Assembly: GCA_016926505.1 (NCBI GenBank)
Contig: JAFGOM010000009.1
Span: 2,805-66,804 of the forward strand
DNA: 64,000 bases
Origin: Methanospirillaceae archaeon
GTDB lineage: Archaea > Halobacteriota > Methanomicrobia > Methanomicrobiales > Methanospirillaceae
Reading direction: 5' to 3'
Each line of letters starts with the position of its first letter. The stretch's first letter is position 1. The translations under genes and the position numbers were made by a program. Below the pieces are notes generated by a model that saw only the letters and a list, made by a program, of their open reading frames with translations, had not been told where the DNA came from and searched no databases. Of the stretch, positions 4,010 to 60,759 are shown in pieces.

Positions 4010-4750
4010 ATGAAAAACGCCGGTAAAGAGGAGGATCAAGAGACGGGAAAAACCGTAGTTCTTATCGTTGATGACAATGAAAATAATCTTCAGATAACCG
4101 CACAGGTTGTGCATAATGCAGGATATCAGGTTCTTTTAGCCTCTGACGGGGCACATGCACTAACCCTCGCATCAGAAGAACACCCTGATGTAATCCTTCT
4201 TGACATCATGATGCCGGGTATGGATGGTCTTGAGGTCTGCAGGCATCTGCAGTCTGACGCATCGCTCGCATCAATCCCGGTAATTTTTCTTTCAGCAAAA
4301 GATGAAGACGAGAGCATCGAGACCGGCCTGGATATCGGAGGATCTGATTATATCACAAAACCGTTCTCTGAAAAGGTTCTTCTTGCCAGGCTGCGGTCCC
4401 ATATCGACCGCAGCAGGTATCAACGGGAACTGGTTGACCTTAATGTAACCCTTGCCCAGAAAAATTCAGAACTTCTCGCGATAAAAGAAGATCTGGTCAT
4501 GATTAATAAACAGCTGGATGGGCAGATACAGCACAACATCATGATGCTTGCAGCCATCAATGATCAGGTCAGAAATCCCTTAACAATAGCGGTTGCGATG
4601 ATCGAGATGAGCGAACCTGAGAACGGTCCGGAGATAATTGATGCCCTCAGACGAATCGATGCTGTTATCGATGATATCGACAAAGGTTTTATCGAATCTG
4701 ACAAGATAAGGGAATACCTGCGAAAGCATCACCACCATGACACCCCGTAG
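4010..4750 (+). CDS. Response regulator (receiver domain plus C-terminal coiled-coil/dimerisation-like region)
   Basis: REC signatures 'VLIVDDNENN', 'DVILLDIMMPGMDG', 'PVIFLSAK', 'DYITKPF'. It overlaps the downstream kinase gene by 14 nt. Confidence 0.85.
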   Translation: MKNAGKEEDQETGKTVVLIVDDNENNLQITAQVVHNAGYQVLLASDGAHALTLASEEHPDVILLDIMMPGMDGLEVCRHLQSDASLASIPVIFLSAKDEDESIETGLDIGGSDYITKPFSEKVLLARLRSHIDRSRYQRELVDLNVTLAQKNSELLAIKEDLVMINKQLDGQIQHNIMMLAAINDQVRNPLTIAVAMIEMSEPENGPEIIDALRRIDAVIDDIDKGFIESDKIREYLRKHHHHDTP

Positions 4751-44191: not shown

Positions 44192-44971
44192 ATGACTGTT
44201 TTATATACATCAAAAATCCTCAAAGCGTCTGCTCTTGTAGATGATACCCTTCAATTATTTTCATCCTGGGATCTCTCACGTAATCAAAAGGACAATCTCA
44301 TAAACATCAAGGAAAACAATATACTGGCTAAAACCTCCAGATCTCGACTTGAGGACATTCTTGTCATCCTTAAACAGCGCTATCTCTCTGATGACGATCT
44401 CATCACCGCACTCCACCTTTTTGTCAGTCAGCGAGTTTCAAATGAAATATTATATCCAATTCTCTTTTTCCTGACAGTACGATCTGATCTCCTTATTCAT
44501 GATCTCATAATCGATTATGTTTACGAACGAAGACGCTCTGGTGCTGAATCGATATCATCTCCTGAAATTGATCACGTTGTTCAACGATATGTAAAGGAAG
44601 GAAAAACAATTACCTCATGGTCTCCAGAGACCACAATTCGGGTTTCTCAGCATTTTTTAGCCCTTCTGAGGGATTTTGGCATTTTTGAAGGAAAAAGCAA
44701 AAAACAATTTGCACCGTTTCTTATTCCAAATGAATCTTTCTCATTTCTTTCATTGTATCTTGAAAAAAGAGGATTTTCTGGTCAGCAATTGATCATAACT
44801 AATGAATGGAAGATTTTATTTCTGGAAAAAGATCTCGTAGAACGTTTTTATGTCGATTGTGAACAGGACGGGCTCCTGATCTATAATGCAGCCTGGCCAG
44901 TGATTCGAATAGATTATCCAGCCCAAACCTTAGCGGAGTATGCGCATGTCATCATTAACCGGACGAATTGA
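44192..44971 (+). CDS. brxA: BREX protein BrxA (DUF1819-like)
   Basis: It holds the first position of the BREX operon and has DUF1819-like size and helical character. The call rests on position plus weak recognition. Confidence 0.65.
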   Translation: MTVLYTSKILKASALVDDTLQLFSSWDLSRNQKDNLINIKENNILAKTSRSRLEDILVILKQRYLSDDDLITALHLFVSQRVSNEILYPILFFLTVRSDLLIHDLIIDYVYERRRSGAESISSPEIDHVVQRYVKEGKTITSWSPETTIRVSQHFLALLRDFGIFEGKSKKQFAPFLIPNESFSFLSLYLEKRGFSGQQLIITNEWKILFLEKDLVERFYVDCEQDGLLIYNAAWPVIRIDYPAQTLAEYAHVIINRTN

Positions 44972-45545
44972 ACAACTACGACAAGATATTATGAGCAGTC
45001 CACCCCGGATCAGTGTGTACCGGGAGATGCCGTTTGCTATCTTCAGATACAATCCGGAAGATGAATGGACGCTCCGATCAGAAACACAAAATCTCGCGAT
45101 CCAACTTCGGAATGCCGGGAAAAATGTGGTCCTATTTTCGATGGAGACGATTCTCTGGGAAATTCTTGAGAAGATAGAAGAGGAGAACCCGGGAGAAGGG
45201 AGACTCGGGGGGCTTATCGACCAGGAGAAGTTTGAGGGGTTTTCTAATATGCAAGAGCAGATGGTGACCTACCTTTCAGATGAAGAGTACTGTCCGCTTT
45301 CGTCCTACATCGAGAAGAAACTTAACGCTTTAAATCCGAAACAGGATATCGGGTTTCTGGTGCATGTCGGGGCACTGGCTCCCCACTTTTACCAGGTCTC
45401 AAAACTGCTGGATGAACTCCAGGGACGGGTTGCCGTCACGACGATTCTCTTTTATCCTGGATCGCTCGAAGAACCGCATGGACTTCGGTTTATGGATATG
45501 CATGATCGTCCTGCTACCGGGGGATACCGGGTGAAGATATACTGA
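44946..45545 (+). CDS. brxB: BREX protein BrxB (DUF1788-like)
   Basis: 'PFAIFRYNPEDEW..L......L...G..V' is the characteristic DUF1788 N-terminus. Second position in the operon. Confidence 0.7.
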   Translation: MSSLTGRIEQLRQDIMSSPPRISVYREMPFAIFRYNPEDEWTLRSETQNLAIQLRNAGKNVVLFSMETILWEILEKIEEENPGEGRLGGLIDQEKFEGFSNMQEQMVTYLSDEEYCPLSSYIEKKLNALNPKQDIGFLVHVGALAPHFYQVSKLLDELQGRVAVTTILFYPGSLEEPHGLRFMDMHDRPATGGYRVKIY

Positions 45546-45549
45546 TACT

Positions 45550-48500
45550 ATGACACTTATTCGAGATATATTAGAACGGGATCTGAATCAGAAGATCGCC
45601 GAGATTATCAAGGTGAATCAGGCTGATGAAGAGACCGTATTTGAAGAGATTACTGAATATGTGGTGACCGATAATATCAGGAAACAGTATTTGGCGGTTC
45701 TGGAAGCGATCTCAAAAGGACCGCAAACTCATCAGACTGATGAGAATATTGGTATCTGGGTGTCTGGTTTCTTTGGGTCAGGTAAATCTTCTTTTGCGAA
45801 GATTCTCGGGTATATCTTAAAAAACCCATCAATTCACGGGAGCTCTGCCAGTGCTCTCTTTAAAGATCAGATCAAGGATGTCCGGGTAAGTGAATATCTG
45901 GATTATATCAATGCAGGTATTCCGACCGATGTGATTATGTTTGATATCTCAACCGATCGGCTGGTCAGGCATGGAGGGCTTGAACCGATAGCTGAGATAA
46001 TGTATCGCAAGCTCCTTGAGTATCTCGGGTATTCTACCGATTTTGATATCGCAGAGCTGGAGATTCAGCTTGAGGAGGAAGAAACAATGGATACGTTCCT
46101 CTCGCTGTTTGCGTCGCTCTATCCTGATACCACCTGGGAGAAAGCCAGAATTGGTGCGACGAAACTCAACCGGGCGAGTGCGACCCTGTATCAGATGGAG
46201 CCGCAGACCTTCCCGACCCCTGCGACCTGGGCTGAGTCGGTGAAGACCCGTCAGGCTGAATTAACAGTGAATAAGATCGTGAGCCGGATTTTTGATCTTC
46301 CTTCCCGAAGGATGCCAGGGAAGGCAATTGTCTTTGTGATAGATGAGGTTGGTCAGTATGTTGCCCGCAGTTCTGATAAAATTGAAGATCTTCGAGCTCT
46401 CGTGGAACAGGTCGGAAAAGAAGGGAAAGCCCGGCTGAAAGAGCGAAAGATACCTGCTCCAATCTGGCTGGTTGTCACCTCGCAAGAGAAACTCAATGAG
46501 GTGATTGCTGCTATTGATAGTAAGAATGTGCAGATTGCCCGGCTGCAGGACCGGTTTGCGTACAAGGTGGATCTCTCCCCTGCTGATATCAGGGAGGTTG
46601 CAAGCCGGAGGGTGCTCTCGAAGAAGAAGGAGGCAGTTCCGGTTCTTCAGACTATGTACCAGCAGTCTGAAGGACGGCTTATTGCACAGTGTTCCCTTGA
46701 GCGGTCCGGTATTGCGACAACGATATCAGCTGATACCTTTGTTGAATCGTATCCATATCTGCCCTACATGATCGATCTCTCCATTCGGCTGATGTCTGCG
46801 ATTCGGCTGCAGTCTGGAGCGGTGAAACATCAGGGAGGAGCGAACCGGACGATCATCAAGCAGGCGTATGAGATGCTGGTCTCTGAACGGACCCGGCTTG
46901 CAGATGCTCCGGTTGGCCGGCTCGTGACCCTTGATCTTATCTATGAACTAGTAGAAGCGAACCTCTCGGTTGAAGGCCGGATGGATATGATGACGATCCT
47001 CTCATCATTTGAGGAGGAAGGAGATCCGGAGTGGCCGGTGCGGTCTGCGAAGGCGATCATGCTTTTGACTTTTGTGCGAGAGATTCCCCGGACACCGAAG
47101 AATATTGCATCGGTTCTGATATCAGAGGTCGGGCAGGATGCTCCGGTTGCCGAGGTGAAGGCTGCGGTGGACCGGTTGCTTGCCAAGCGGTTCATCAAAG
47201 AGACTGAAGAGGGGTATAAACTGCTCTCACAGGGTGAAAAGACCTGGGATGAGGAACGGCAGGGGCTGAAAGGGGTTATCAGACCGGCAGATCGTACTGG
47301 AATTTTGCGTGACCTGCTGGGGAAGAGTCTTACTGATCCGAAACTGAAGACATACCGGCATCAGAATCTGAAGAATTTCAAGGTCTCTTACTCGGTGGAT
47401 GGCACCCGGGTCTCTGATCCCGGCTCCATCGTGGTGTATATTGAGATCTCTGAGGACCCGGAGAAACTTGCGACCGAGATTGAGCGGGTTCAGAGTGAGA
47501 GCAGGGGCAAGGATCGGCAGTATGACATCTTCTGGGTGATGACCGCGACCCCGGAGATTGATGGGATGGTGACTGAGCTCTATGCCTCCCGCGAGATGGT
47601 CAGGAAGTACGACCAGGCACGGGCACAAAATAAGATTAATGCGATCGAGCAGGAGTGCCTTGAAGCTGAGAAGAAGGAGCAGGCCAGGTGGCAGGCCCGG
47701 CTTTCAGAGAAACTCTTCCAGTCGCTCAGTGAGGGGGTCGGGATTTTCCAGGGAGTTCGGAAGGAGAGTGCCTCTCTTGGGAAGGATCTCTCGTCAGCAT
47801 TCCCGGCCCTCTTTGGGTATGCTGCACCGATTCTCTTCCCTCATCTCTCAACCGGGGCGGTGAACCTGAAAGGGGATGAGGCCACCCGGGTGCTTCGCGA
47901 TCAGAACCTCTCCGGTCTGCCTGCAATCTTTTACGAGGGGAATGGCGGCCTCTCGCTTGTCAGGAAAGAGAATAATAATTACGTGGTCAATCCGGAAGCC
48001 CCGATTGTTGCCCTGGTGCTTGAGCCGGTCCGTCGTCAGCATGAGTACGGGGGTGAGGCAATCTCGGGGAAGTACCTTGAGCAGTACTTTGGCGGGTATG
48101 GCTTTGGCTGGGATAGTGCGGTGGTGATGATGACCCTTGCAACCCTCTTCCGGGGTGGGATGCTTGCGGTGATGCATCAGGGGACCACATACGAAAGTTA
48201 TGATGAGAAGGAGGCACAGGCGATCTTCACCACGATCCCGAAGTTTCGGAGTAGTGCGTTTATCCTCTCTGATACGAATATTCCGGTAGAGGCACTGGTG
48301 AGGCTCTCGGATCTCCATCGGGATATGACCGGGCATGAACTGGATATTGATGAGGTGAAGATTGCTGCCGGGTTTGTGGAACTGGCAAATAAGGAGTATG
48401 ACGGGGTGGTCTCACTCGTGGCAACCATCCGATCGAACAAGCTTCCGCAGCTTGAGGATGTCGAGAGTCTGAAAGTGATGCTCCAGGCGATTCGGTCTGC

Positions 48501-49206
48501 CCCTTCATCCCGGGCGGTCTGCAAGGTTCTGCAGGGGTATGATCAGTCACTCCGTCATGCACGGGACCGGTACCTGGTGGTATCACGAAAACTCACCGAT
48601 TCCTTCCTTTCGATTGTTGAAAAGGCTCGGAAACTTGTTCCGATTGCAGCACCGGCAGTTGATAATAGGGACGGAGAGCAGGTAGTTAAAGATTTGGCAG
48701 CCTTGCTTGAGTCTGATGACCTCATTGACCAGGAAGAAGAGTTAGTCAAACTTCTTACAGATGCTGAAGCTGCATACCTGAAAATGTATAAGGATGCTCA
48801 TGCTGAGCGGAACCATATCATCAAGAGTTATATTGAACTCGTGAATGGAAATCCGGATTTTGATGCACTTTCACCAGCACAGCAGGATATTGTGCATGGA
48901 GTTATCAGGCCCTATCTGTGTGAGGGGGAGGGGCTGAATGAGCAGTATGTCTGTCCGGTCTGTAAAGCAAATGTTCCTACGATTATTTCCCTCTCCCCTC
49001 GGGGTGTAGAACTTTTTGAGAAGATGAACCTGATGATCCAGAAATTTCTCATCCCCCCGGAGCGGATCAAGCAGGTGAATATCTCTACGTATCTTCCAAA
49101 TCGGATTGAAGATATGGAGTCCCTTGACCTTGCCGTTGCGGAACTGAAGGCTGAACTAGAGAAATTCCTTGATGAAGGATATACGCTCGTCTTTACCTCA
49201 CGATGA
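45550..49206 (+). CDS. brxC: BREX P-loop ATPase BrxC/PglY
   Basis: 1,218 aa. Walker A 'GFFGSGKSSFAKILGY', Walker B-like 'IVFVIDEVGQY'. Size and position are typical. Confidence 0.85.
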   Translation: MTLIRDILERDLNQKIAEIIKVNQADEETVFEEITEYVVTDNIRKQYLAVLEAISKGPQTHQTDENIGIWVSGFFGSGKSSFAKILGYILKNPSIHGSSASALFKDQIKDVRVSEYLDYINAGIPTDVIMFDISTDRLVRHGGLEPIAEIMYRKLLEYLGYSTDFDIAELEIQLEEEETMDTFLSLFASLYPDTTWEKARIGATKLNRASATLYQMEPQTFPTPATWAESVKTRQAELTVNKIVSRIFDLPSRRMPGKAIVFVIDEVGQYVARSSDKIEDLRALVEQVGKEGKARLKERKIPAPIWLVVTSQEKLNEVIAAIDSKNVQIARLQDRFAYKVDLSPADIREVASRRVLSKKKEAVPVLQTMYQQSEGRLIAQCSLERSGIATTISADTFVESYPYLPYMIDLSIRLMSAIRLQSGAVKHQGGANRTIIKQAYEMLVSERTRLADAPVGRLVTLDLIYELVEANLSVEGRMDMMTILSSFEEEGDPEWPVRSAKAIMLLTFVREIPRTPKNIASVLISEVGQDAPVAEVKAAVDRLLAKRFIKETEEGYKLLSQGEKTWDEERQGLKGVIRPADRTGILRDLLGKSLTDPKLKTYRHQNLKNFKVSYSVDGTRVSDPGSIVVYIEISEDPEKLATEIERVQSESRGKDRQYDIFWVMTATPEIDGMVTELYASREMVRKYDQARAQNKINAIEQECLEAEKKEQARWQARLSEKLFQSLSEGVGIFQGVRKESASLGKDLSSAFPALFGYAAPILFPHLSTGAVNLKGDEATRVLRDQNLSGLPAIFYEGNGGLSLVRKENNNYVVNPEAPIVALVLEPVRRQHEYGGEAISGKYLEQYFGGYGFGWDSAVVMMTLATLFRGGMLAVMHQGTTYESYDEKEAQAIFTTIPKFRSSAFILSDTNIPVEALVRLSDLHRDMTGHELDIDEVKIAAGFVELANKEYDGVVSLVATIRSNKLPQLEDVESLKVMLQAIRSAPSSRAVCKVLQGYDQSLRHARDRYLVVSRKLTDSFLSIVEKARKLVPIAAPAVDNRDGEQVVKDLAALLESDDLIDQEEELVKLLTDAEAAYLKMYKDAHAERNHIIKSYIELVNGNPDFDALSPAQQDIVHGVIRPYLCEGEGLNEQYVCPVCKANVPTIISLSPRGVELFEKMNLMIQKFLIPPERIKQVNISTYLPNRIEDMESLDLAVAELKAELEKFLDEGYTLVFTSR

Positions 49207-52200
49207 CCATGACCGATACACCGGATGTGAACAAGTCTGCACTCCATGATCTCTCCCTGACCGCCCGAAAAACCCTGACCACTGATGTCCAGGATCTTCT
49301 CGAAGGGGTGTATGGTCTCTCTGATAAAGGAGTATTTACGCCGGCAGAGAAGATCCCGGCGATCCAGGATGAACCTGAAGTTGCAGAGACCCGAAGGCTC
49401 CTTGAGCAGCTGTTTGCTGATGAGACGTCTTCAGGTATGCCTGCTCCGGAAGCATACCGGCGACTGGTAAAAGAGGTCTCGTTCACCTGGACCAACCGGC
49501 TCGTTGCTCTCCGGATGATGGAGGTCCGGGGGCTTATCAGGAAATCGCTGGAAGGGCAGGTAGATTCAAATGGGTTCCTCCGGTGGTCCGTTTCTCCGGA
49601 GCAGGCAGCGATCAAGCGAGATATGGGGGATCTCACCCTGAATAGCCGGGGAGAGACCGGGCATACCGGATTTTTATCCTCTCGGTTTGTGGTGATATCG
49701 CCGGTGAGATAGCAGTCCTCTTTGATCCAGAGAATCTTCCGTCTCGTTTATTTCCCCGGCCTCCGGCTTTGAAAGAGATGATCCTGATACTTACGCATCA
49801 GGATCTTGATTCCTCCTGGCAGGCAGAAGAGACGATCGGGTGGGTGTACCAGTACTTCAACGAGGAGGAGAAGGCTGCGGTCTTTGACCGGCTCTATAAG
49901 CAAAAAAAGAAGATCCAGGCAGAGGATATTCCGGCTGCCACCCAGCTCTTCACTCCCCGGTGGATTGTCAAATATCTGGTGCAGAATACCCTGGGGCGTC
50001 AGTGGGTACAGATGCATCCCGATACCCGGCTCGTAGAGTTTCTGGATTATCTCGTTCCCCTACAGGGAGAGGTTCCTCCGGTTCCGATGAAACCGGTCCG
50101 GGAGCTGACTCTCCTGGATCCGGCATGTGGGACGATGCATTTTGGGCTGGTGGCGTTTGATCTCTTTACCCGAATGTACGAAGAGGAACTGGAGAAGGCC
50201 GGGACTTCAGGATGGCCTGTTGCTCCTTCGATAAAGGATACCAGAGAGATTCCTTCTGCGATTATTGAGAATAATATCTGGGGGGCTGATATTGATCTTC
50301 GGGCCATCCAGCTCTCGGCATTGACGCTGTTCCTGAAAGCGAAGGCATACCATAAAGATACGAAGATCACGAAGCATCACCTGGCCCATGCCGGAGTACA
50401 GCCGATCAGCGGAGAGCATTTAGAGAAGTTTGTGCAGGATTCAGAACTGTCTCCATTATATAACCGGATTCTCCGGCAATTACTTGAAGAACTAAAACTT
50501 GCTCCGCATCTGGGGTCATTACTCAAGATCGAGGAGTCGATCACCCGGCTGGTGCAGGAGGAGAAGGACCGATTCGAGGTGAAGGGCAGGCAGATCGATC
50601 TTTCTGGGAAACCATTGGAGGGGTTTGATACAGCTGCTTTTGACGAGGTCTTCTGGGAACGGCTCGGGAATGATATCGCTAAGAAACTTCAGGAGTATGC
50701 AACGGCTCACGGGACCCTGGAAGAGAATTTTTTTGCAGGAGAGGCAGAGAAGGGGCTTCGGTTACTGGAGGTACTGAGGAGAAAGTATGATGTGGTTATT
50801 GCTAATCCTCCTTATCTCCACAATAGAGGAATGAGTATAGAAATTCGTAATTATCTTAACTCGCATTATATTAATTCCGATAAAGACCTATATAGTGCCT
50901 TCATTTATAAATTAATACAATTATCTACTCAATATTCTCGCATTGGAATGATTACTCAACAATCATTCATGTTCACTAACAATTTCGAATTATTACGCAA
51001 TTTTATTGATGAATGTGCACTTTTAGAGTCTATGATCCATTTAGGTCCACATGCATTTGTGGATATTAGTGGGGAAAAAGTCAATACAACTGCATTCATT
51101 TTAAACATTTTTGATACAAAAACTAAATATAAAAGAAATTCTTCAATTTTTTTTAGATTAATTAAAATTCAAGACCCAATTGAGAAAAAAATTAATTTTG
51201 GAAAGTTTTTTTATGATTTAAAATCCAATCACGAAAATAAGTGTTATCTCTATAGTACGATTAATTTTAATAGAATTCCTGAATCTCCTTGGATTTATTG
51301 GTTAAGTTCAGAAATATTATCTTTTTTTGATAATTATAAATTATTATCAGAAATCTCTCCCTCTCGAGTTGGGTTGCAAACAGGAGATAATTTCAGATTT
51401 TTAAAATATTGGTGGGAAATAGAAAATAGAACTACAGTCCTAAAATGGACACCATATATGAAAGGAGGAGAGTATTGTAAGTGGTACGGAAACCAAGAAT
51501 ATATTGTTAATTGGGATAATGATGGTTATGAAATTAAAAATATTGTGGATTCAAAAGGAAAAATTGCATCTAGGCCACAAAATACTGGTTATTATAAGTT
51601 AAAGGGGATAACATATGGAGATTTATCATCAACAGCATTTAATGCTAGGTTATCTCCAGGTGGATTCATTTTCGATGTAAAAGGTTCTTCCCTGTTTCCA
51701 GATAATAATTATAAATTCTTAGGATTATTAAATTCAAAGTTTTCAAATTATATTCTGTCTTCGTTGAATCCCACAGTTTCTTTCCAAGTCGGAGATCTCG
51801 CCCGTCTCCCCATCCCCGATAAAAATTCACCCCTTCTCGAATCACTCGTCGAAAACGCCATCACCCTCGCTAAGATTGACTCAGCCGAAGACGAGATCAC
51901 CTACGACTTCACGGCTCCCCCATTCGCCCCCACCCTCTCCGGCATGACCGATCTCGTGAAACAACGTCATGACCATCTCCGGGACATAGAAAATAAGATC
52001 GACGACGAAGTATATCGTCTCTACGACATCACTGACGAGGATCGGGCAGCCATCGAAACCGAAGTCGGACAGCCTCCGGCACTCCCGACCCCGACACCCG
52101 TGGATCTGGTTAATCACTGGATCGGGTATGCCATCGGGATCATCATGGGCCGGTTCATCCCCGGAGAAGAGGGAGCACTCGGGTCCGGAATCGTGGATGG

Positions 52201-52990
52201 CAAGCACATCTTCTCCCCGGAAACAGAGAAACAACTCCGGGAGCTGACCGATGCCGATGCGGTGACAGTCCTGGAAGACGGGCATCCCGATGACCTGGGA
52301 GTTAAGGTGCTCACTGCCCTGACCCTGATGCTCGGAGAGGAGACGACCACCGAGATTCTGTCGCTTTTGGGCGGGGATATGGCAATAGGAGCAGCGACGA
52401 TCCGATCATTTCTGCTGAAAGATTATTGGAAGATTCATCTCCAGTGGTATCGGAAGCGACCTATCTACTGGCTTATCCAGTCACCAAAGAAAGAATACAG
52501 CTGTTATGTCTTCCATGAGCGGATGACGTCTGATTCGCTCTTTTTGATTCAGTCGGCCCGGTATCTGGGTGGACGGATCAATGCTCTCCGGAGCAGGATC
52601 GGCGAGGTCATGGAGGCTATTCAGACTGCTGAAGGCCGGGAGCGGAAGGCTCTTGAGAAGGAGCGGGAACAGCTCGAGAAGGCCCTTGTAGATTGCGAAG
52701 AACTGGATAGTTCTCTCACCCGGATCATTCAGAAGACGGATGAGACCGGGAAGACGGTTGGATGGAAACCCGAACTCGATGACGGGGTGATCCTGAATAT
52801 GGCACCGCTCCGGGAGCTCTTCCCGTCGTGGAAAGTTGAACCGGTGAAATTCTGGAAAGAACTGGAAGAGGGGAAATACGATTGGTCATATACTGCAATG
52901 CGATACTGGCCGACGCGGGTTAGGGAGGCATGTAAGCGGAATAAGAGCTACGCGATTGCACATGGGTTGGAAGAGGAGTATGAGGGATGA
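49203..52990 (+). pseudogene. pglX: BREX N6-adenine DNA methyltransferase PglX, split by a 1-nt frameshift at about 49646-49660
   Basis: The N-terminal 169-aa ORF (49203..49712) and the 49769..52990 ORF are both PglX-like. The downstream frame is open from 49646 and reads 'AYRIFILSVCGDIAGEIAVLFDPENLPSRLFPRP...WVYQYFNEEEK...TPRWIV...ANPPY'. Confidence 0.8.
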
Positions 52991-53754
52991 AAAAATTAAT
53001 TCTATCAATTCTGACTACTCCAGGAACACTCCCTATTATGACAGGTATTATTGGATTTTTTAGTGGATATTTGCTTAATCGGCATTTTGACAGGCAGAAA
53101 GCTCTCCGAGATAAAGCCAGACAACTCGATTCTGTTTTATACTCTGATATGAGACCTGAAATTCTTGAAGTGATCAAATCTCTCGAAAAAGGCACATACA
53201 TTAAAGTAAAGGGGGAAGGAATTGATGAAATATCTATTACTGATAAAAAAATACGTGAGATGTTATTAGGTTCTAAAGTCTTTATCGAAAAATCAGGTAA
53301 ATTGGAGCTCATCTATACTCAAGATAAGGTGTTTACCAAACCCGCGAATGAAATTATCTCTTTGGTTGAACAGTTTACAAAAGAACTGAACGATTTCCTC
53401 ACATCTCTAAAGGCTATTGATACGGCCATCATTCCATCTTCTTTTGAATCGGATATTTTTCGAACCTTCAAAGTGGAACGAGAATCGGCAAAAATGAAAG
53501 AATTTTCAATGAATCTCATTTATTGTGCAATATTAGATTCTCAAAATGCATTTACAGGCGGAAGAACCTGGGTAGATGAAATGGTTCAAAATAAATTTCC
53601 TGTTCTCCAATTGTTTGTTTTTCAATATGACTCACTCAAAAGGAAATCTGAAGAACTAGCAGAAAAAAGAAATGAATTAATTGAGATATTATCAAAAATA
53701 GAAAAACAAATCTCTAAACTTCATAATCGGTTTCTGAATGAGAGATTGGTATAA
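52987..53754 (+). CDS. Hypothetical protein with an N-terminal TM helix and a C-terminal coiled coil (nested cassette gene 1)
   Basis: ATGA overlap with the pglX stop. 'LILSILTTPGTLPIMTGIIGFFSGYLL' TM segment. AT-rich. No family was recognised. Confidence 0.6.
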   Translation: MKKLILSILTTPGTLPIMTGIIGFFSGYLLNRHFDRQKALRDKARQLDSVLYSDMRPEILEVIKSLEKGTYIKVKGEGIDEISITDKKIREMLLGSKVFIEKSGKLELIYTQDKVFTKPANEIISLVEQFTKELNDFLTSLKAIDTAIIPSSFESDIFRTFKVERESAKMKEFSMNLIYCAILDSQNAFTGGRTWVDEMVQNKFPVLQLFVFQYDSLKRKSEELAEKRNELIEILSKIEKQISKLHNRFLNERLV

Positions 53755-53774
53755 AATATAAATAGTGGATTCGA

Positions 53775-54206
53775 ATGACAAAATATTCAAATTTAATTGA
53801 TGATTATAAATCCTCAGCCAAACGGCATCTAAATGGTTCGGACACACTCTTGAGAGAAAACCAGTATGAAGAATCGGCATATCTCGCAGGGTATGTATCT
53901 GAGTGCTCAATAAAGAAGATGGTTCAACTGATCTTAAAAAATGATGCTCCAATATTTCAGCATGATATTTCATTATTATCTAATCAGTTAATACAATTAA
54001 TTCAAAAGACGGCTGAATTTTCATTATCTAAATATATACCAACCCCGCAAGGAAATTTGTTCGAAGGTTCAATTAATAATTGGGATCCTGTTCTTCGGTA
54101 CAAAACTGACGGGACTATAAATGAAACAACAGCAAAAGAATGGTATCGTGAAGCTTCAGTTCACTACAATATTCTGCAGGAGATGTGGAAGGATGGATAC
54201 TCATGA
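53775..54206 (+). CDS. HEPN-like small protein with an Rx4H motif (nested cassette gene 2)
   Basis: 'AKRHL..LL....YEESAYLAGYVSECSIKK', 'HDISLL', 'WDPVLRY' and 'YREASVH' (R125..H130) match the HEPN layout. Confidence 0.55.
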   Translation: MTKYSNLIDDYKSSAKRHLNGSDTLLRENQYEESAYLAGYVSECSIKKMVQLILKNDAPIFQHDISLLSNQLIQLIQKTAEFSLSKYIPTPQGNLFEGSINNWDPVLRYKTDGTINETTAKEWYREASVHYNILQEMWKDGYS

Positions 54207-55513
54207 ATATTCACCTTGATGAAGCCCGGAATAATACTCTTACCTTTCTAAGGTCACTTCTGAAAAAGAACACGGATATTGAAAAGATTATCTTTATTGA
54301 AGATGTATTCAGCCGATTCAGAATAATATACTGGACCCAGAAGCCATATGACTTCGACAAGATAAGTGCGACTATCGAAAAAACGGCAAGACCATTCTGG
54401 TCTCAGGAATATATCAATATTTCAGTCACATCTCCAGCCTACGATCGTGAATTCTATGATCAGAGCTGGGACGAAGGAAAAGAAGATGACGAAATGGATT
54501 CTCTTCGGATACTTGAGCGGCATCGCAACCGCCGTGGATGGTTTGAACCATTCACAAAACCCCTTTGGCTCCCATTAGATCCTGGTAACCCGCGGACTCC
54601 CCCAATCATCACCTTCTACTCATTCAAAGGAGGAATTGGGAGAACCACCGGACTTGCAGCTTTCGCAATAGATCGGGCACATGCAGGAGAGAGGGTAGTA
54701 GTCCTTGATTGCGATCTGGATGCTCCAGGTATTGACCGACTTATCACCGGAGATCCTACTATCCAGGCTCCATGGGGGATTGTTGATTATCTCCTCGAAG
54801 CCCCGTTGATTGAATTACCCCTTACTGATTACAAACACCGTTGTCAGTCAGAAAAAATTACCGGGGAAGGAGAAATACTGGTTTTTCCAGCCGGCAAACT
54901 TGATGACAGATATCCGGAAAAATTAGCCCGGATCGATCTCAATCAGTCTACGGATGATTCCGATCATCCTCTGATGAGACTAATCTCCAGAATCGCAGCC
55001 GAATTAATTCCGGACTGGATTCTGATTGACGCACGAAGTGGCTTGTCTGAAATATCCGGGTTAGTTCTTTCCGATTTATCCCATCTCCTCGTATTATATG
55101 GCACCACTTCAGAGCAGAGTTGGGATGGTCTTCGATATATTATTGAAAGAGCAGGAAAAGAGAGAATAAACCGTGATACCCCACAACAACCCTGCATTAT
55201 TGTTCAGTCATTGATACCTGAAGTAAAATCAACCCCATCTGCCCAGGAATGGTTTGAGACGAGATCCCTCGATCTATTTTCAGAGATATACTACCGCGAA
55301 GACCCTGAGGATCCTTCAGAACGAGAAGAGAATTATTGGTATCTTACCGATATCAATGATGAAAAAGCCCCTCATCTCCCGGTAGGGATTACATATTCAC
55401 CCGGACTTGCCTTCTTTCATACCCTTTCTGATATTGTTCCTGACATTCGGAATAATAAAGACTTTCAGGCTTTGGTACAGAAGATCTATGATTATTTCAA
55501 ACCAGATGTATGA
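54203..55513 (+). CDS. ParA/MinD-like (SIMIBI) ATPase with a variant Walker A 'KGGIGRTT' and an N-terminal extension of about 135 aa (nested cassette gene 3)
   Basis: 'ITFYSFKGGIGRTTGLAAFA', 'VVVLDCDLDAPG', 'WILIDARSGLSE'. ATGA overlaps with both neighbours. The ORF is also open from 54185. Confidence 0.7.
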   Translation: MNIHLDEARNNTLTFLRSLLKKNTDIEKIIFIEDVFSRFRIIYWTQKPYDFDKISATIEKTARPFWSQEYINISVTSPAYDREFYDQSWDEGKEDDEMDSLRILERHRNRRGWFEPFTKPLWLPLDPGNPRTPPIITFYSFKGGIGRTTGLAAFAIDRAHAGERVVVLDCDLDAPGIDRLITGDPTIQAPWGIVDYLLEAPLIELPLTDYKHRCQSEKITGEGEILVFPAGKLDDRYPEKLARIDLNQSTDDSDHPLMRLISRIAAELIPDWILIDARSGLSEISGLVLSDLSHLLVLYGTTSEQSWDGLRYIIERAGKERINRDTPQQPCIIVQSLIPEVKSTPSAQEWFETRSLDLFSEIYYREDPEDPSEREENYWYLTDINDEKAPHLPVGITYSPGLAFFHTLSDIVPDIRNNKDFQALVQKIYDYFKPDV

Positions 55514-57006
55514 CATTAACACAGGAACAGCAAAGATCTCTCATCCATGACGTATCATCCCTGGATAGCCACGGGCACGGAGATATGGAAGATAAAGAGA
55601 ATTTCCTCAGATATTTTTATCCGGTTCCTGCTCATATCCGTGGCTTTGATCCTGAAGTCGTCATTATCCTTGGAAAGCGAGGGGTTGGGAAATCTGCATT
55701 ATATGAAGCGGTAACAACCCATAGGTTAATTTCAGTGATTTCACGTTTTTCTCCACAGCAACGAATTCAGCAAGCCTCATTATCAAAGACCTCTTGGTGC
55801 AAGGGATATAATCCACAAAAAAGGTTTCCTGACCCACAGGTAATATTTAAGATATTTGAAAAAGACTGGAATGGGCGCATTATTGAACAGATTTTCTGGC
55901 ATTGTTACCTTCTTCGTGAATTATCTGATAACTTACCAGAAGTCGATAAAAACTCTTTAGAATTGATAATATCAGGGGAAAATTATGAGCCCCTTAAAAT
56001 TATAGAAGCATTTATTGCAGCTGGGGAGTTTCCATATTACGCATTAGATCGTCTTGATCAATCACTCGAAAAAGAAGGGCGATTTATCTATATTGCATAC
56101 GATGCGTTAGATTCTTTAGGAATCGAACAATGGGAATTGCATCGCCGATTAATATCAGGTCTCATTTCATTTTGGGCAAAACAGAGCAGGAGGTGGTCCA
56201 ATATCCGTGCAAAAATCTTTATTCGGACTGATCTCTATGAACGCTATCTGCAGATCGGAGAACCAGATGTAATTAAACTCGCAGCGAATAGAGTGGAGAT
56301 AACATGGCTGCCTCATCACCTCTATGCAATGTTGATTAAACGTATTGCAAATATCAATCCATCTTCATTAGCATATTGTCAGGACGCAGGAATTCACTTT
56401 AAAAAAGATAATGTCCTTGGTCATATCCCCCAAATCTCTTCACTAGATGATGCCGATTTGTTTATTACAAGGTTTATCGGGCAATATATGGGTTCTGATA
56501 ATAGAAAGGGAAAGACGAATACTTGGATACTAAATCATCTACAGGATGGCAAAAAAAATGCCAATCCACGACCTTTAATAAGATTGATCGGTAAAAGTGC
56601 GACTGCTCAAAAAGATAGTACCTTACCATCTCCTCCCCATCTTATTTCGCCGGTAACAATCCGAAGAGAATTAGACCAAATATCTGTCGAAGAGATCATG
56701 AGCGCTCAGAGTGAGTGGCCATGGATTAATGACCTTAAACAGAAACTTGAAGGAAAACAGATCCCTATGGAGGAAAAAGATCTGGAACAGATTATTACGA
56801 AATTATTTAGAACTGAATGGAAAGAGGGATCGAAAAACAGGCCACCTTCTGATAATCCATCTGCATTCATTGAGTATCTCGATAAACTTGGATTAATTAA
56901 GGAGAGGCCTGACAAGAGAATAGATGTTACTGATTTATATCGTGCGGGACTTGGCTTAAAACGAAAAGGCGGAGTTAGAAAAAACTCCCCTTCAAAGAAG
57001 AAATAA
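55510..57006 (+). CDS. P-loop NTPase of unknown family (nested cassette gene 4)
   Basis: Walker A 'ILGKRGVGKSALYEAV', Walker B 'FIYIAYDALD', then 'KIFIRTDLY'. Basic C-terminal tail. Confidence 0.7.
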   Translation: MTLTQEQQRSLIHDVSSLDSHGHGDMEDKENFLRYFYPVPAHIRGFDPEVVIILGKRGVGKSALYEAVTTHRLISVISRFSPQQRIQQASLSKTSWCKGYNPQKRFPDPQVIFKIFEKDWNGRIIEQIFWHCYLLRELSDNLPEVDKNSLELIISGENYEPLKIIEAFIAAGEFPYYALDRLDQSLEKEGRFIYIAYDALDSLGIEQWELHRRLISGLISFWAKQSRRWSNIRAKIFIRTDLYERYLQIGEPDVIKLAANRVEITWLPHHLYAMLIKRIANINPSSLAYCQDAGIHFKKDNVLGHIPQISSLDDADLFITRFIGQYMGSDNRKGKTNTWILNHLQDGKKNANPRPLIRLIGKSATAQKDSTLPSPPHLISPVTIRRELDQISVEEIMSAQSEWPWINDLKQKLEGKQIPMEEKDLEQIITKLFRTEWKEGSKNRPPSDNPSAFIEYLDKLGLIKERPDKRIDVTDLYRAGLGLKRKGGVRKNSPSKKK

Positions 57007-57039
57007 TCCGATTTTCCTCTCAAATATCATCCAAAAGAT

Positions 57040-58137
57040 ATGGAATCCCCTAGAATCCCCTCTGATTATCCCACCTTCCTCACCGACCTGAAGAACCGTA
57101 TCCGCCAGGCCCAACTCAAAGCCACAATATCAGTAAACCGGGAACTCATTCTCCTCTACTGGCAGATCGGCAAAGATATTCTCACCAATCAGGAGATACT
57201 CGGCTGGGGAGCAAAGGTCATCGACCAACTTTCCCAGGATCTCCGCACAGAGTTCCCTGATATGAAAGGTTTCTCGGTCAGAAACCTCAAGTATATGCAG
57301 GCTTTTGCTGCCACTTATCCAGACCCTGAATTTGTGCAGCAGGTTGCTGCACAATTGCCCTGGTTCCATATCTGTCTCCTCATAACCAGAATAAAAAACC
57401 CTAATGAACGGTTGTTTTACCTGAATCAGGCCATCGAACATGGGTGGAGCAGGAGCATTCTTACTCATCAGATTGATCTCAACCTCTATGATCGTCAGGG
57501 GAAAGCCATCACAAATTTCTCCCATACGCTCCGTTCCCCAGCATCAGATCTGGCTCGAGAGACTCTGAAAGATCCCTATATCTTCGATTTCCTGACGCTC
57601 TCTGAAGAAGCACAGGAAAGGGACCTTGAAGATGCCCTCATCTCTCATATTCAGCAATTCCTGCTCGAACTCGGCATCGGATTTGCGTTTCTTGGAAGAC
57701 AATATCCCCTAACCGTTGGAGATCAAGATTTTTATCTCGACCTCCTCTTCTATCATACCCGTCTCCACTGCTACGTGGTCATTGAACTCAAGGCTCATGA
57801 ATTCAAACCGGAATGTGCAGGAAAATTAAATTTCTACCTCTCTGCAGTGGATGATCTCATAAGGCAGGAAGGAGACAACCCTACCATCGGGATTCTCCTG
57901 TGTCGTGAGAAGAACCGGGCGATTGCAGAATATGCCCTGCGGGATATCCAGAAACCCATCGGAGTATCAGAGTATCAATTGACCAGGGCATTGTCTGAAG
58001 ACCTGAAAGAACGACTTCCGAGTGTTGAAGAAATTGAAAAGACATTGGAAGAGATTGAACTGAAGACAATGTCATCAATGTCTGGAGAAATTGAGATTAA
58101 CTATAAGGATGGGACAAAATATCATGAAAAATTCTAA
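57040..58137 (+). CDS. DUF1016/YhcG-family PD-(D/E)xK nuclease
   Basis: N-terminal 'I..AQ.KA..SVNRELILLYWQIGKDIL' and 'FSVRNLKYMQAF'. C-terminal nuclease core 'DLLFYHTRLHCYVVIELK'. Confidence 0.8.
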   Translation: MESPRIPSDYPTFLTDLKNRIRQAQLKATISVNRELILLYWQIGKDILTNQEILGWGAKVIDQLSQDLRTEFPDMKGFSVRNLKYMQAFAATYPDPEFVQQVAAQLPWFHICLLITRIKNPNERLFYLNQAIEHGWSRSILTHQIDLNLYDRQGKAITNFSHTLRSPASDLARETLKDPYIFDFLTLSEEAQERDLEDALISHIQQFLLELGIGFAFLGRQYPLTVGDQDFYLDLLFYHTRLHCYVVIELKAHEFKPECAGKLNFYLSAVDDLIRQEGDNPTIGILLCREKNRAIAEYALRDIQKPIGVSEYQLTRALSEDLKERLPSVEEIEKTLEEIELKTMSSMSGEIEINYKDGTKYHEKF

Positions 58138-60751: not shown

Positions 60752-60759
60752 GTGAACTC

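What the first reader, a model, noticed from the sequence alone, without database searches (positions are those of the whole stretch)
50816..51788. Sharply bounded AT-rich ~1-kb segment inside pglX, starting right after the NPPY motif: possible swapped specificity module
Up to the catalytic 'VVIANPPY' (aat 50804 ... tat 50815), pglX is G+C-rich; 50101-50160 has 35 G+C of 60. Immediately afterwards the composition collapses; 51121-51180 has 10 G+C of 60. It returns abruptly at about 51788 ('gtcggagatctcgcccgtctcccc'). The reading frame is maintained throughout. The segment encodes the C-terminal half of the methyltransferase fold plus the region expected to contact the target DNA. This mosaic is what recombinational replacement of a target-recognition region from a low-GC donor would leave. 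That process would reprogram the BREX recognition motif, as shuffling of hsdS or type IIG TRDs does.
Basis: partly seen in the sequence, partly recalled or inferred. Interest (0 to 1): 0.6.

Follow-up and report, generated by a model that had tools for sequence, protein, structure and literature searches.

The report
Exchangeable AT-rich specificity cassette in pglX
The AT-rich kilobase inside this archaeal BREX anti-virus methyltransferase gene is real. It is the part that reads the DNA target, it has a different ancestry from the rest of the gene, and the same AT-rich cassette recurs in relatives, so it is a clear example of a known kind of variation and not a one-off import.

Summary
**Observation: confirmed exactly.** pglX codons 350-673 (50816-51787) have 28% G+C (GC3 0.21). 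The flanks have 51-55% (GC3 0.58-0.63). Only 3 of 11,332 equal-sized windows of the 2.9-Mb genome are as AT-rich. The frame stays open.

**What the block is.** Aligned to solved PglX/BrxX structures, it comprises the methyltransferase half after NPPY, the hinge and the target-recognition domain (TRD). It runs to two residues past the last base-reading residue, so it holds every known specificity determinant.

**Separate history.**
- Flanks are 82-91% identical to three relatives; the block is 40-43% identical.
- Synonymous sites are saturated in the block but not in the flanks.
- AU tests reject shared ancestry for the whole block (p=0.015) and for its first half (p=0.004).

**Not a one-off import from a low-GC donor.**
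- Each close relative carries its own divergent AT-rich block with the same junctions.
- G+C drops at or soon after NPPY in nine other methylase genes of this archaeal order, in Deinococcus and on an E. coli plasmid.
- In 82 PglX genes the block's GC3 lies below both flanks in 52 and above both in 5.
- Two Methanothrix BREX loci are 91-100% identical except for this block, which shows the exchange directly.

**Verdict.** This is a new allele of a known kind, specificity-module exchange. The gene here is also broken by a 10-base deletion upstream. The cause of the AT-richness is unresolved.

The parts
44192..49206 (+). brxA (44192-44971), brxB (44940-45545) and brxC (45550-49206) of a BREX type 1 locus
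   Evidence: Pfam BrxA and BrxB. NCBIfam BREX_BrxC scores 617.8 bits against a cut-off of 400.
49203..49712 (+). N-terminal fragment of pglX (169 codons). A 10-base deletion between 49654 and 49655 puts it out of frame with the rest of the gene.
   Evidence: NCBIfam BREX_1_MTaseX profile positions 3-105. There is a 10-nt gap against the intact genes of L011 and L012. The relatives encode uninterrupted proteins of 1267 and 1269 aa.
49769..50815 (+). pglX N part (residues 1-349 of the long ORF): the end of the N-terminal domain and the methyltransferase domain up to motif IV. NPPY lies at 50804-50815.
   Evidence: GC 0.51, GC3 0.58. Identity to P0122, P0109 and P0119 is 84-89%. NPPY aligns to Salmonella PglX 509-512 and E. 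coli BrxX 508-511.
50816..51271 (+). Cassette part M1 (residues 350-501): the half of the methyltransferase domain after NPPY, up to the hinge.
   Evidence: AT-rich. It is only 27-31% identical to the clade and sister proteins, which are 44-57% identical to one another. The best match among the 186 aligned full-length PglX proteins is 41%. The AU test rejects grouping it with clade plus sister, p=0.0036. It keeps the family-invariant residues F378, F400, F402, R410 and K473.
51272..51787 (+). Cassette part M2 (residues 502-673): the target-recognition domain, ending two residues after the position of E. coli N823 / Salmonella S838.
   Evidence: Residue 502 aligns to E. coli BrxX 651, the TRD start. 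S671 aligns to Eco N823 / Salm S838, and K638 to Salm T802. Identity to clade members is 55-60%, the same as among those members. Clade monophyly is not rejected. Synonymous sites are at chance level.
51788..51811 (+). Right junction: codons for the conserved VGDLARLP, where G+C and identity to relatives return.
   Evidence: DNA alignment with L011 and L012. G675 and P681 are invariant in 30 PglX proteins. Contigs from runs X2 and X4 span this junction.
51788..52990 (+). pglX C part: the last ~12 residues of the TRD, the helical spacer and the C-terminal domain.
   Evidence: GC 0.547, GC3 0.63. Identity to the three relatives is 82-91.5%. It aligns to Salmonella PglX 968-1187 and E. coli BrxX up to residue 1166.
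52987..58137 (+). Passenger genes between pglX and pglZ: 255-aa, 143-aa, 442-aa ParA-like and 498-aa ORFs, plus a DUF1016/YhcG nuclease. They are not part of the cassette but belong to the same compositional mosaic.
   Evidence: Pfam. GC 0.33-0.46. The relatives carry different passengers at this position.
58169..62802 (+). pglZ (58169-60751) and brxL (60760-62802)
   Evidence: The best NCBIfam hit for pglZ is TIGR02687, PglZ type A: 174.6 bits, below that model's cut-off of 270.35. BrxL scores 1058 bits on TIGR02653.

Best explanation
Nucleotides 50816-51787 are the specificity cassette of a BREX type 1 PglX methyltransferase. The cassette comprises the methyltransferase half after the NPPY motif, the hinge and the target-recognition domain. 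Together these form the cleft that reads the 6-bp BREX motif.

This cassette is one allele of an old, very diverse set. Alleles are exchanged between otherwise conserved BREX backbones by homologous recombination in the conserved codons on either side: NPPY on the left and QVGDLARLP on the right.

In this lineage the two halves of the cassette have different histories.
- The first half (M1, 50816-51271) comes from outside the clade that the flanks belong to.
- The second half (M2, the TRD proper) is a clade-level hypervariable allele.

Exchange would change which motif is methylated and which phages are excluded. The AT-richness is not the mark of one recent donor. It is a property that such cassettes share in this archaeal order and in many bacterial PglX genes.

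What is shown: the mosaic ancestry, the junctions, the domain content, and the exchange in relatives. What is inferred: the change of motif, and the recombination mechanism for this particular copy. What is unresolved: why the cassettes are AT-rich.

In this genome the gene is in addition interrupted by a 10-base deletion upstream, so the allele is probably not expressed as a full-length enzyme.
For: 1. **Identity.** NCBIfam BREX-1 PglX scores 774.8 bits against a cut-off of 500. BrxC and BrxL pass their cut-offs; pglZ's best hit is PglZ type A at 174.6 bits, below that model's cut-off of 270.35. Solved PglX/BrxX structures match at E = 1e-115 and 1e-101, and they are the best fold matches.
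2. **Domain content.** The block corresponds to E. coli BrxX 512-825 and Salmonella PglX 513-840. It contains the TRD (Eco 651-837, Salm 684-838), the extra specificity loop Salm 591-600, and the engineered or base-contacting residues Eco G785 and N823 and Salm T802 and S838.
3. **Mosaic identity.** Against P0122, P0109 and P0119 the N part is 84-89% identical, the block 40-43% and the C part 82-91.5%. Those three are themselves only 47-53% identical to each other in the block.
4. **Synonymous sites.** Codon sharing at identical residues gives z = 3.7-10 in the flanks but z = -1.2 to 1.3 in M1 and M2.
5. **Trees.** The flank tree puts the four proteins in one clade (100*), with a window end branch of 0.059. 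In the block tree the window's branch is 1.54 and it falls outside that clade. The AU test rejects the 4-member clade for the block (p=0.015) and rejects placing the window's M1 with clade plus sister (p=0.0036).
6. **Junctions.** In the window, L011 and L012, identity and G+C collapse at the codon after NPPY and return at QVGDL. A 1956-nt contig of run X2 diverges exactly at 50815 and rejoins at about 51826.
7. **Exchange seen directly in relatives.** The Methanothrix loci L109 and L110 are 91-100% identical in DNA from brxC to brxL, and 97-100% away from the cassette. The exception is 4650-5690 (45-67%), between the NPPY end at 4611 and QxGD at 5640. Several other pairs have flanks 90-97% and a block 46-54% identical.
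8. **This allele exists elsewhere.** Short contigs in four other metagenomes are 96.6-97.6% identical to 51254-51816. The flank pieces in the same runs are 83-95% identical.
Against: - For the TRD proper (M2), the tree with the four clade members together is not rejected and even scores better than the free search (p=0.95). Vertical descent with very fast divergence cannot be excluded for that half from the tree alone.
- No backbone nearly identical to this window's but carrying another cassette was found. No full-length gene with this cassette on another backbone was found either. The best block match among full-length proteins is 47%, and 45-49% in JGI contigs. For this copy, exchange is therefore inferred from the pattern, not seen.
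- The window's block has a biased amino-acid make-up (FYMINK 0.42) and very long branches. These can mislead trees and AU tests.
- The run contigs are short and low-depth, and they cannot be linked to particular flanks.
- The motif was not measured.
Confidence: 0.78

Rival explanations
1. One reading: one recombinational import of a target-recognition region from a low-GC donor genome into this gene. The AT-richness would then be the donor's signature.
For: GC3 is 0.21 against 0.58-0.63 in the flanks, and the amino-acid make-up is typical of AT-rich genomes (FYMINK 0.42, GARP 0.15). The window's M1 is phylogenetically foreign to its clade.
Against: - L011, L012 and the remnant L097 all have equally AT-rich blocks (GC3 0.20-0.21 in L011 and L012) at the same junctions, each with a different sequence.
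- The sister-group genes L095 and L096 dip too.
- Nine other NPPY methylase genes of the same order dip at or soon after NPPY.
- The closest relatives of the block, P0003 and P0004, have GC 0.49-0.53 there.
- No donor above 49% identity turned up in 5.8 billion proteins or in the JGI contigs.
Confidence: 0.08
2. No exchange at all: the block diverged in place from the clade's common ancestor. The cause would be diversifying selection combined with a locally raised or AT-biased mutation regime. One such regime is a recombination cold spot that escapes GC-biased gene conversion.
For: - The M2 tree is compatible with clade monophyly.
- The dip is one-sided across the family: 52 of 82 genes below both flanks, 5 above, and none higher by 0.1.
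- The three clade alleles have nearly the same GC3 (0.20-0.21).
- Low-GC hosts show no dip.
Against: - L109 and L110 have flanks 91-100% identical in DNA but a block of 45-67%. Divergence in place cannot produce that.
- The window's M1 is rejected from its clade.
- Selection on protein sequence does not saturate synonymous sites. A dedicated hypermutation process would be needed, and nothing of the kind is seen nearby: no repeats and no retroelement.
- Cassette pieces 97% identical to the window occur in runs whose flank pieces are 83-95% identical.
Confidence: 0.12
3. Artefact: a chimeric metagenome assembly that joined reads of two organisms inside pglX.
For: The genome is a 121-contig assembly, and AT-rich stretches are prone to assembly breaks. 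A second pglX of the same genome is split at a contig end just after NPPY.
Against: - The frame is open across both junctions, and all family-invariant residues are present.
- The same architecture occurs in independent assemblies from other samples.
- Contigs of two other runs span the right junction, with the window's cassette on one side and the GC-rich flank on the other.
Confidence: 0.02

Closest known systems
BREX type 1 PglX/BrxX of E. coli HS (PDB 9EWZ, 8ZEK; motif GGTAAG) and Salmonella (PDB 8C45, 8Q56; motif GATCAG); PMC11842806, PMC11341690
   Same: The four-domain architecture is the same: N-terminal domain, gamma-class methyltransferase with NPPY, TRD and C-terminal domain. The match is full-length (E 1e-115 and 1e-101) and these are the best fold matches. 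Both papers identify the TRD as the specificity determinant and, for BrxX, as the most variable part. Point changes in it alter the motif.
   Different: Identity is only 25-27%, and the host is an archaeon. Those papers changed specificity by point mutation. In the text I read and searched they do not describe natural whole-cassette replacement, its junctions at NPPY and QVGDL, or the AT-rich composition. The copy here is frameshifted.
Movement and replacement of target-recognition domains in Type I HsdS, Type IIG and Type III Mod methyltransferases (Furuta, Kobayashi and colleagues: PMC3077401, PMC3467074, PMC3983042, PMC3575425)
   Same: A DNA-recognition module is replaced by recombination within conserved flanking sequence, which changes methylation specificity while the catalytic scaffold is kept.
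   Different: Here the unit also carries the second half of the catalytic domain (motifs after IV). There are no flanking repeats. The enzyme is the nuclease-free methyltransferase of a six-gene BREX system. The two halves of the unit have different histories.
MmeI-family Type IIL enzymes, the closest structural relatives of PglX outside BREX according to PMC11341690
   Same: A methyltransferase domain is followed by a TRD in one polypeptide. The specificity residues lie at equivalent positions (MmeI A774 and R810 correspond to Salmonella T802 and S838, per PMC11341690).
   Different: PglX has no nuclease domain. It has extra N- and C-terminal domains and works with BrxA, BrxB, BrxC, PglZ and BrxL.
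Phase-variable specificity switching by inversion between duplicated hsdS or pglX copies (PMC7394358, PMC4948785; phase variation of pglX noted in PMC11341690)
   Same: The outcome is the same: alternative specificity modules in one defence methyltransferase.
   Different: No inverted repeats bracket the block. The genome holds no second or silent copy of the cassette. No Pfam recombinase domain turned up in the locus genes scanned. The variation here is between genomes, not within a cell.

Membership tests
BREX type 1 PglX (BrxX) methyltransferase | Matches the curated PglX family model above its cut-off | tested here: met
   NCBIfam NF033452 BREX_1_MTaseX scores 774.8 bits against a cut-off of 500, over profile positions 201-1209. 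The upstream fragment matches positions 3-105.
BREX type 1 PglX (BrxX) methyltransferase | Gamma-class N6-adenine methyltransferase core with motif IV NPPY | tested here: met
   Pfam Eco57I (E = 1.2e-23) and N6_Mtase. NPPY at residues 346-349 aligns to the NPPY of 8C45 and 8ZEK.
BREX type 1 PglX (BrxX) methyltransferase | Lies in a locus with brxA, brxB, brxC, pglZ and brxL | tested here: met
   All five genes were recognised in canonical order. The pglZ hit is below its model's cut-off. Passenger genes sit between pglX and pglZ.
BREX type 1 PglX (BrxX) methyltransferase | Intact full-length reading frame (about 1200-1300 aa) | tested here: not met
   A 10-base deletion at 49654/49655, relative to L011 and L012, splits the gene into 169-aa and 1073-aa frames.
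BREX type 1 PglX (BrxX) methyltransferase | Methylates the fifth adenine of a 6-bp non-palindromic motif in vivo | not testable with these tools
   No methylome data were available. The gene is frameshifted in this genome.
Specificity-module (TRD) exchange in DNA methyltransferases | The module is far more divergent than its flanks between otherwise close relatives | tested here: met
   Identity to the nearest relative runs 89% / 43% / 89% across N part, block and C part. Flanks are 96-97% and the block 49% in P0154 versus P0160.
Specificity-module (TRD) exchange in DNA methyltransferases | Module and flanks give conflicting trees | tested here: met
   The flank clade has 100* support. The AU test rejects that clade for the block (p=0.015) and rejects placing M1 with clade plus sister (p=0.0036). 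It is not rejected for M2 alone.
Specificity-module (TRD) exchange in DNA methyltransferases | The module holds the residues that read the DNA sequence | tested here: met
   By alignment to solved structures, the block corresponds to Eco BrxX 512-825 and Salm PglX 513-840. It includes Eco G785 and N823, Salm T802 and S838, and the loop Salm 591-600. The AlphaFold model was too poor in this region (pLDDT 28-50) to add anything.
Specificity-module (TRD) exchange in DNA methyltransferases | Near-identical backbones carrying unrelated modules (direct evidence of replacement) | tested here: inconclusive
   This is met in related Methanothrix loci: L109 and L110 are 91-100% identical outside the module and 45-67% inside. 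No such partner was found for the window's own backbone, whose nearest flanks are about 82% identical in DNA.
Specificity-module (TRD) exchange in DNA methyltransferases | Different modules give different methylated motifs | not testable with these tools
   This needs SMRT or Nanopore methylomes, or an expression assay.
Inversion or shufflon-type phase-variable specificity genes | Inverted repeats around the variable segment, plus a silent alternative copy in the same genome | tested here: not met
   No meaningful repeats bracket the block. tblastn and blastn of the block against the whole genome find only the block itself and a 31%-identical TRD of a second pglX.

The most novel reading that the evidence does not exclude
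The AT-richness may be a rule and not an accident. In PglX and related NPPY methylases across archaea and bacteria, the segment from NPPY to the TRD end sits at or below the G+C of its flanks, by up to 0.4 in GC3, and never clearly above. The junctions are the same codons each time.

This would fit specificity cassettes being very old alleles kept by balancing (frequency-dependent) selection. Such alleles are too divergent to recombine internally. They would then drift towards the AT-rich mutational equilibrium, while the recombining flanks stay GC-rich.

If so, a compositional dip would be a sequence-only marker that delimits the specificity cassette of any such defence methylase. It would also give a read-out of how long alleles have been maintained.
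Probability: 0.3. Interest if true: 0.6.

Novelty: new member of a known kind. Interest (0 to 1): 0.42.

Why it matters
- **Natural boundaries for retargeting BREX.** The data give the boundaries of the exchangeable specificity unit of BREX PglX: the codon after NPPY through the codon before VGDLARLP. This is a ready design rule for retargeting BREX by cassette swap instead of point mutation. It also suggests that the second half of the methyltransferase domain travels with the TRD, though sometimes with a separate history.
- **Natural reassortment.** BREX specificity is reassorted in nature among methanogens of anaerobic digesters and sediments.
- **An evolutionary question.** The one-sided AT-richness of these cassettes across phyla can be tested in well-sampled species. 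Candidate causes are balancing selection, a recombination cold spot, or a mobile allele pool.
- **The window itself.** The allele is new, with at most 47% identity to any full-length protein found. It sits in a gene that is already broken.

Tried and rejected
- **Shufflon or phase variation.** No inverted or direct repeats bracket the block. The genome holds no silent copy.
- **Search for a donor.**
  - A protein search with the block alone gave at most 47% identity.
  - A scan of JGI metagenome contigs with the block gave at most 45-49%.
  - The best hits, P0003 and P0004, are not AT-rich.
- **Structure prediction.** AlphaFold2 with a 30-sequence alignment gave pLDDT 28-50 over residues 430-610. 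It was unusable for mapping the TRD, so I used sequence alignment to the solved structures instead. The fold search only re-found PglX/BrxX.
- **DNA of P0109.** The DNA of this closest relative in the C part could not be fetched. Only its protein was used.
- **More clade members in the host's order.** A search of 401 genomes gave only a decayed remnant (L097) and C-terminal fragments.
- **A universal AT-rich cassette pool.** This is not supported as a general statement. In 35 metagenome loci, block GC3 tracks flank GC3 (r = 0.94), with only a one-sided tail.
- **Amino-acid requirement of the domain as the cause of AT-richness.** Rejected. GC2 barely changes (0.34, 0.33, 0.39) while GC3 falls from about 0.6 to 0.21. 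Homologues without a dip have an ordinary composition in the block.
- **Literature.** Four full-text searches found no description of an intragenic G+C dip, or of natural cassette replacement, in pglX. That library lacks most subscription journals.
Full report
**1. The observation**

The window carries a complete BREX type 1 locus:
- brxA, 44192-44971
- brxB, 44940-45545
- brxC, 45550-49206
- pglX, 49203-52990
- five passenger genes, 52987-58137
- pglZ, 58169-60751
- brxL, 60760-62802

Within the long pglX frame (49769-52990) composition runs as follows:

| Segment | Coordinates | G+C | GC3 |
|---|---|---|---|
| N part, up to the NPPY codons | to 50815 | 0.510 | 0.58 |
| Block | 50816-51787 | 0.282 | 0.21 |
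| C part | from 51788 | 0.547 | 0.63 |

- GC2 hardly changes (0.34, 0.33, 0.39), so the shift lies in first and third codon positions.
- A two-breakpoint likelihood fit puts the AT-rich segment at 50780-51769.
- The genome averages 46.5% G+C. Only 3 of 11,332 windows of the same length are as AT-rich.
- The pglX frame is open through all 324 codons of the block. The other five frames have 17-43 stops.
- All residues that are invariant in a 30-sequence PglX alignment are present.

The block is real, coding and under constraint.

**2. What the block encodes**

The protein matches the curated BREX-1 PglX model (774.8 bits against a cut-off of 500). It also matches the solved Salmonella PglX and E. 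coli BrxX structures (E = 1e-115 and 1e-101; best fold matches). From those alignments:
- NPPY (residues 346-349) equals Salmonella 509-512 and E. coli 508-511.
- Residue 502 equals E. coli 651, the start of the TRD.
- The last residue of the block, Q673, equals E. coli 825 and Salmonella 840.

The published domain limits are methyltransferase domain 211-650, TRD 651-837 and hinge loops 638-675 in E. coli BrxX (PMC11842806). In Salmonella the TRD is 684-838, with one further specificity loop at 591-600 (PMC11341690).

The block therefore equals the methyltransferase half after motif IV, the hinge, and the TRD up to two residues past the base-contacting E. coli N823 / Salmonella S838 (here S671). 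Every residue shown experimentally to set the motif lies inside it: E. coli G785 and N823, and Salmonella T802 and S838.

The AlphaFold model was poor exactly here (pLDDT 28-50 for residues 430-610), so I did not use it.

**3. The block has a different history from its flanks**

- **Best matches.** A search of 5.8 billion proteins with the block alone found nothing above 47% identity apart from the window's own product. A search with the two flanks joined found three relatives at 79-88%.
- **Segment by segment.** Identities to P0122, P0109 (named uncultured Methanospirillum) and P0119 are 84-89% in the N part, 40-43% in the block and 82-91.5% in the C part.
- **DNA level.** In the alignment with the two relatives whose DNA could be fetched (L011, L012), identity falls from about 80-90% to about 40-60% at the codon after NPPY. 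It recovers at the codons for QVGDLARLP.
- **Synonymous sites.** At residues that are identical between two sequences, the same codon is used far more often than shuffling predicts in the flanks (z = 3.7 to 10). It is no more often than chance in the block, whether taken whole or as two halves (z = -1.2 to 1.3). The block is thus saturated at silent sites while the flanks are not. Faster protein evolution alone cannot produce that.
- **Trees.** In the flank tree the four proteins form a clade with full support, and the window's end branch is 0.059. In the block tree that branch is 1.54 and the window falls outside the clade and its sister group. The AU test rejects the four-member clade for the block (p = 0.015).

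**4. The two halves of the block differ**

- **M1 (residues 350-501, 50816-51271).** It is only 27-31% identical to the clade and sister proteins, which are 44-57% identical to each other. Its best match among the 186 aligned full-length PglX proteins is 41%. The AU test rejects placing it with clade plus sister (p = 0.0036). Its sequence follows the general PglX consensus (GMITQQSFMF, HLGPHAF, GEKVNT) and not the clade's own type.
- **M2 (residues 502-673, 51272-51787, the TRD proper).** It is 55-60% identical to the clade members, which is the same as they are to one another. Clade monophyly is not rejected and even scores better than the free search.

The part that is demonstrably foreign in this lineage is therefore the methyltransferase half. 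The TRD is a hypervariable allele of clade-level origin whose silent sites are nevertheless saturated.

The window's block has an extreme amino-acid make-up (FYMINK 0.42, GARP 0.15) and long branches. These tests therefore carry the usual long-branch caveat.

**5. The AT-richness is not peculiar to this gene**

*Close relatives.* L011 and L012 have the same dip (G+C 0.31 and 0.30, GC3 0.21 and 0.20) at the same junctions, with different sequences. A decayed remnant in a genome of the same family (L097) shows the same AT-rich stretch up to the same right junction. The sister-group genes dip as well: L096 has two tandem pglX at 0.36 and 0.32, and L095 is at 0.45.

*The host's order.* Eleven other NPPY or NVPY methylase genes, only 25-34% identical to this one, were profiled in gene contexts of roughly 45-65% G+C.
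- In nine of them G+C falls by 0.15-0.30 for about 0.3-1.2 kb. In five the fall comes in the first 150 nt after the motif, and in the other four 150-300 nt later.
- The other two are L011 and L012, already counted above.
- The second pglX of this same genome (contig C111) falls only to 0.40 before its contig ends.

*Other phyla*:

| pglX | Before NPPY | After NPPY | Afterwards |
|---|---|---|---|
| Deinococcus wulumuqiensis plasmid | 0.61-0.67 | 0.39-0.46 for 1050 nt | back to 0.61-0.69 |
| E. coli IncX1 plasmid | 0.45-0.49 | 0.32-0.39 | rises again |
| Acinetobacter | 0.44 | 0.35 | - |
| Paraburkholderia | - | no dip | - |
| Ligilactobacillus, Bacillus mycoides (low-GC hosts) | - | no dip | - |

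*Family-wide count.* Over 82 PglX genes with DNA in hand, block GC3 is below both flanks in 52, above both in 5, lower by at least 0.2 in 15, and never higher by 0.1. The window's dip (0.40) is the second largest.

*Closest relatives of the block.* P0003 and P0004 are not AT-rich (0.49-0.53).

The dip is therefore a one-sided, recurrent property of this cassette. It is extreme in Methanomicrobiales and is not the fingerprint of one low-GC donor.

**6. Exchange is seen directly in relatives**

Among 17,391 pairs of full-length PglX proteins, several have flanks 90-97% identical and a block of only 46-54%.

For one such pair I fetched the DNA. The Methanothrix loci L109 and L110 are 91-100% identical from brxC through brxL, and 97-100% away from the cassette. 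The exception is positions 4650-5690, which are 45-67% identical. This stretch lies between the end of NPPY (4611) and QxGD (5640). Both alleles are AT-richer than their flanks. Identity sags to 91-97% over the 1.2 kb to the left of the cassette.

Protein-level profiles of ten such pairs put the left break between NPPY and about 30 residues after it. The right break lies between the QVGD motif and about 40 residues after it. This is replacement by recombination in conserved flanking sequence.

**7. This allele elsewhere**

The full-length searches found no close relative of the window's cassette. Short, low-depth contigs in four other public metagenomes (anaerobic digester, sludge, bioreactor and one unspecified) do match 51254-51816 at 96.6-97.6% identity.
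- Two of them span the right junction.
- Flank pieces in the same runs are 83-95% identical.
- In the X2 contig that spans the junction, the listed mismatches concentrate on the flank side. That implies roughly 97% identity on the cassette side and about 83% in the first 100 nt beyond it.

This suggests, but does not prove, that the allele sits on more than one backbone. The contigs are too short to link.

A 1956-nt contig in X2 is another clade member. It leaves the window's sequence exactly at 50815 and rejoins at about 51826.

**8. What was excluded**

- No repeats bracket the block.
- There is no second or silent copy in the genome.
- No Pfam recombinase domain turned up in the locus genes scanned.
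- So this is not a shufflon or a phase-variable switch.
- An assembly chimera is excluded by the open frame, by independent assemblies with the same architecture, and by junction-spanning contigs from other samples.

**9. Function in this genome**

pglX is split by a 10-base deletion at 49654/49655 relative to L011 and L012. The cassette is intact, but the enzyme is probably not made at full length, so no effect on the methylome of this organism should be expected.

By the covariation rule reported for enterobacterial PglX, lysine at Salmonella position 802 goes with C just 5' of the methylated A (PMC11341690). K638 here would predict a C at that position. This is a weak inference across 27% identity.

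**10. Comparison with what is known, and verdict**

Specificity-domain replacement is well documented for Type I HsdS, Type IIG and Type III Mod enzymes (PMC3077401, PMC3467074, PMC3983042). The PglX TRD is known to be the variable specificity determinant (PMC11842806, PMC11341690). The papers I could search do not describe three things: natural whole-cassette replacement in pglX, its fixed junctions, or the compositional dip.

Other agents of this scan have noted the same pattern in E. coli, Salmonella-like and ARMADA methylase genes. Those notes are leads, not evidence, though my independent checks agree with them.

The finding is thus a new allele of a known kind of variation.
- The "swapped module" reading is supported.
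- The "low-GC donor" reading is not supported.

Why these cassettes are AT-rich remains open. Candidates are old balanced alleles in a recombination cold spot that drift to the AT-rich mutational equilibrium, or a lineage-level pool of AT-rich alleles.

Noticed in passing
genome contigs C111:6143-7780 and C23:275-6447 (outside the window): The same genome holds a second BREX-1-like pglX.
- Its N-terminal and methyltransferase part runs off the end of contig C111 just after NPPY, where G+C falls to 0.36-0.40.
- A 562-aa TRD plus C-terminal part lies at C23:2103-3788, with G+C 0.24-0.32 and then 0.51 and above.
- That part is preceded by a Schlafen/AlbA_2-HATPase_c_4 gene and followed by a PglZ gene.

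Either the gene is interrupted, or the assembly broke inside the AT-rich cassette.
   Followed up: partly
window 49654/49655: A 10-base deletion relative to L011 and L012 puts the first 169 codons of pglX out of frame with the rest.
   Followed up: yes
L109:3450-5850 versus L110: In two otherwise 100%-identical Methanothrix BREX loci, DNA identity sags to 91-97% over about 1.2 kb left of the cassette and about 0.3 kb right of it. Two causes would fit: recombination tracts of varying length, or linked divergence around a long-maintained polymorphism.
   Followed up: no
L003 (G030:C19:13260-18921): A methanogen of the same order has a methylase gene followed by two further ORFs in tandem. Each encodes only the TRD plus C-terminal part, and each has its own AT-rich TRD stretch. 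This may be an array of alternative specificity modules.
   Followed up: no
L096:2054-9888: Two full-length pglX paralogues (1316 and 1295 aa) lie head to tail between brxC and pglZ. Both have AT-rich cassettes, and one has NPPF instead of NPPY.
   Followed up: no
L097 (G290:C298): A decayed copy of this clade's pglX begins inside the cassette (about residue 564). It has in-frame stop codons and is preceded by an AAA-ATPase-like ORF. Its C part is about 75% identical to the window's.
   Followed up: partly
window 44192-44971 and 52987-57006: The BREX locus is a wider compositional mosaic. brxA (G+C 0.38) and the four passenger genes after pglX (0.33-0.44) are also well below brxC, pglZ and the pglX flanks (0.50-0.55). 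The relatives carry different passengers at the same position: TPR and DUF1016 genes in L011, and a PIN gene in L012.
   Followed up: no
L114 (Nostoc sp. MS1 plasmid, NZ_AP023442.1): pglX is annotated in three pieces, with an IS630 transposase inserted between the methyltransferase part and the TRD/C-terminal part. This is another pglX broken in or near the cassette.
   Followed up: no
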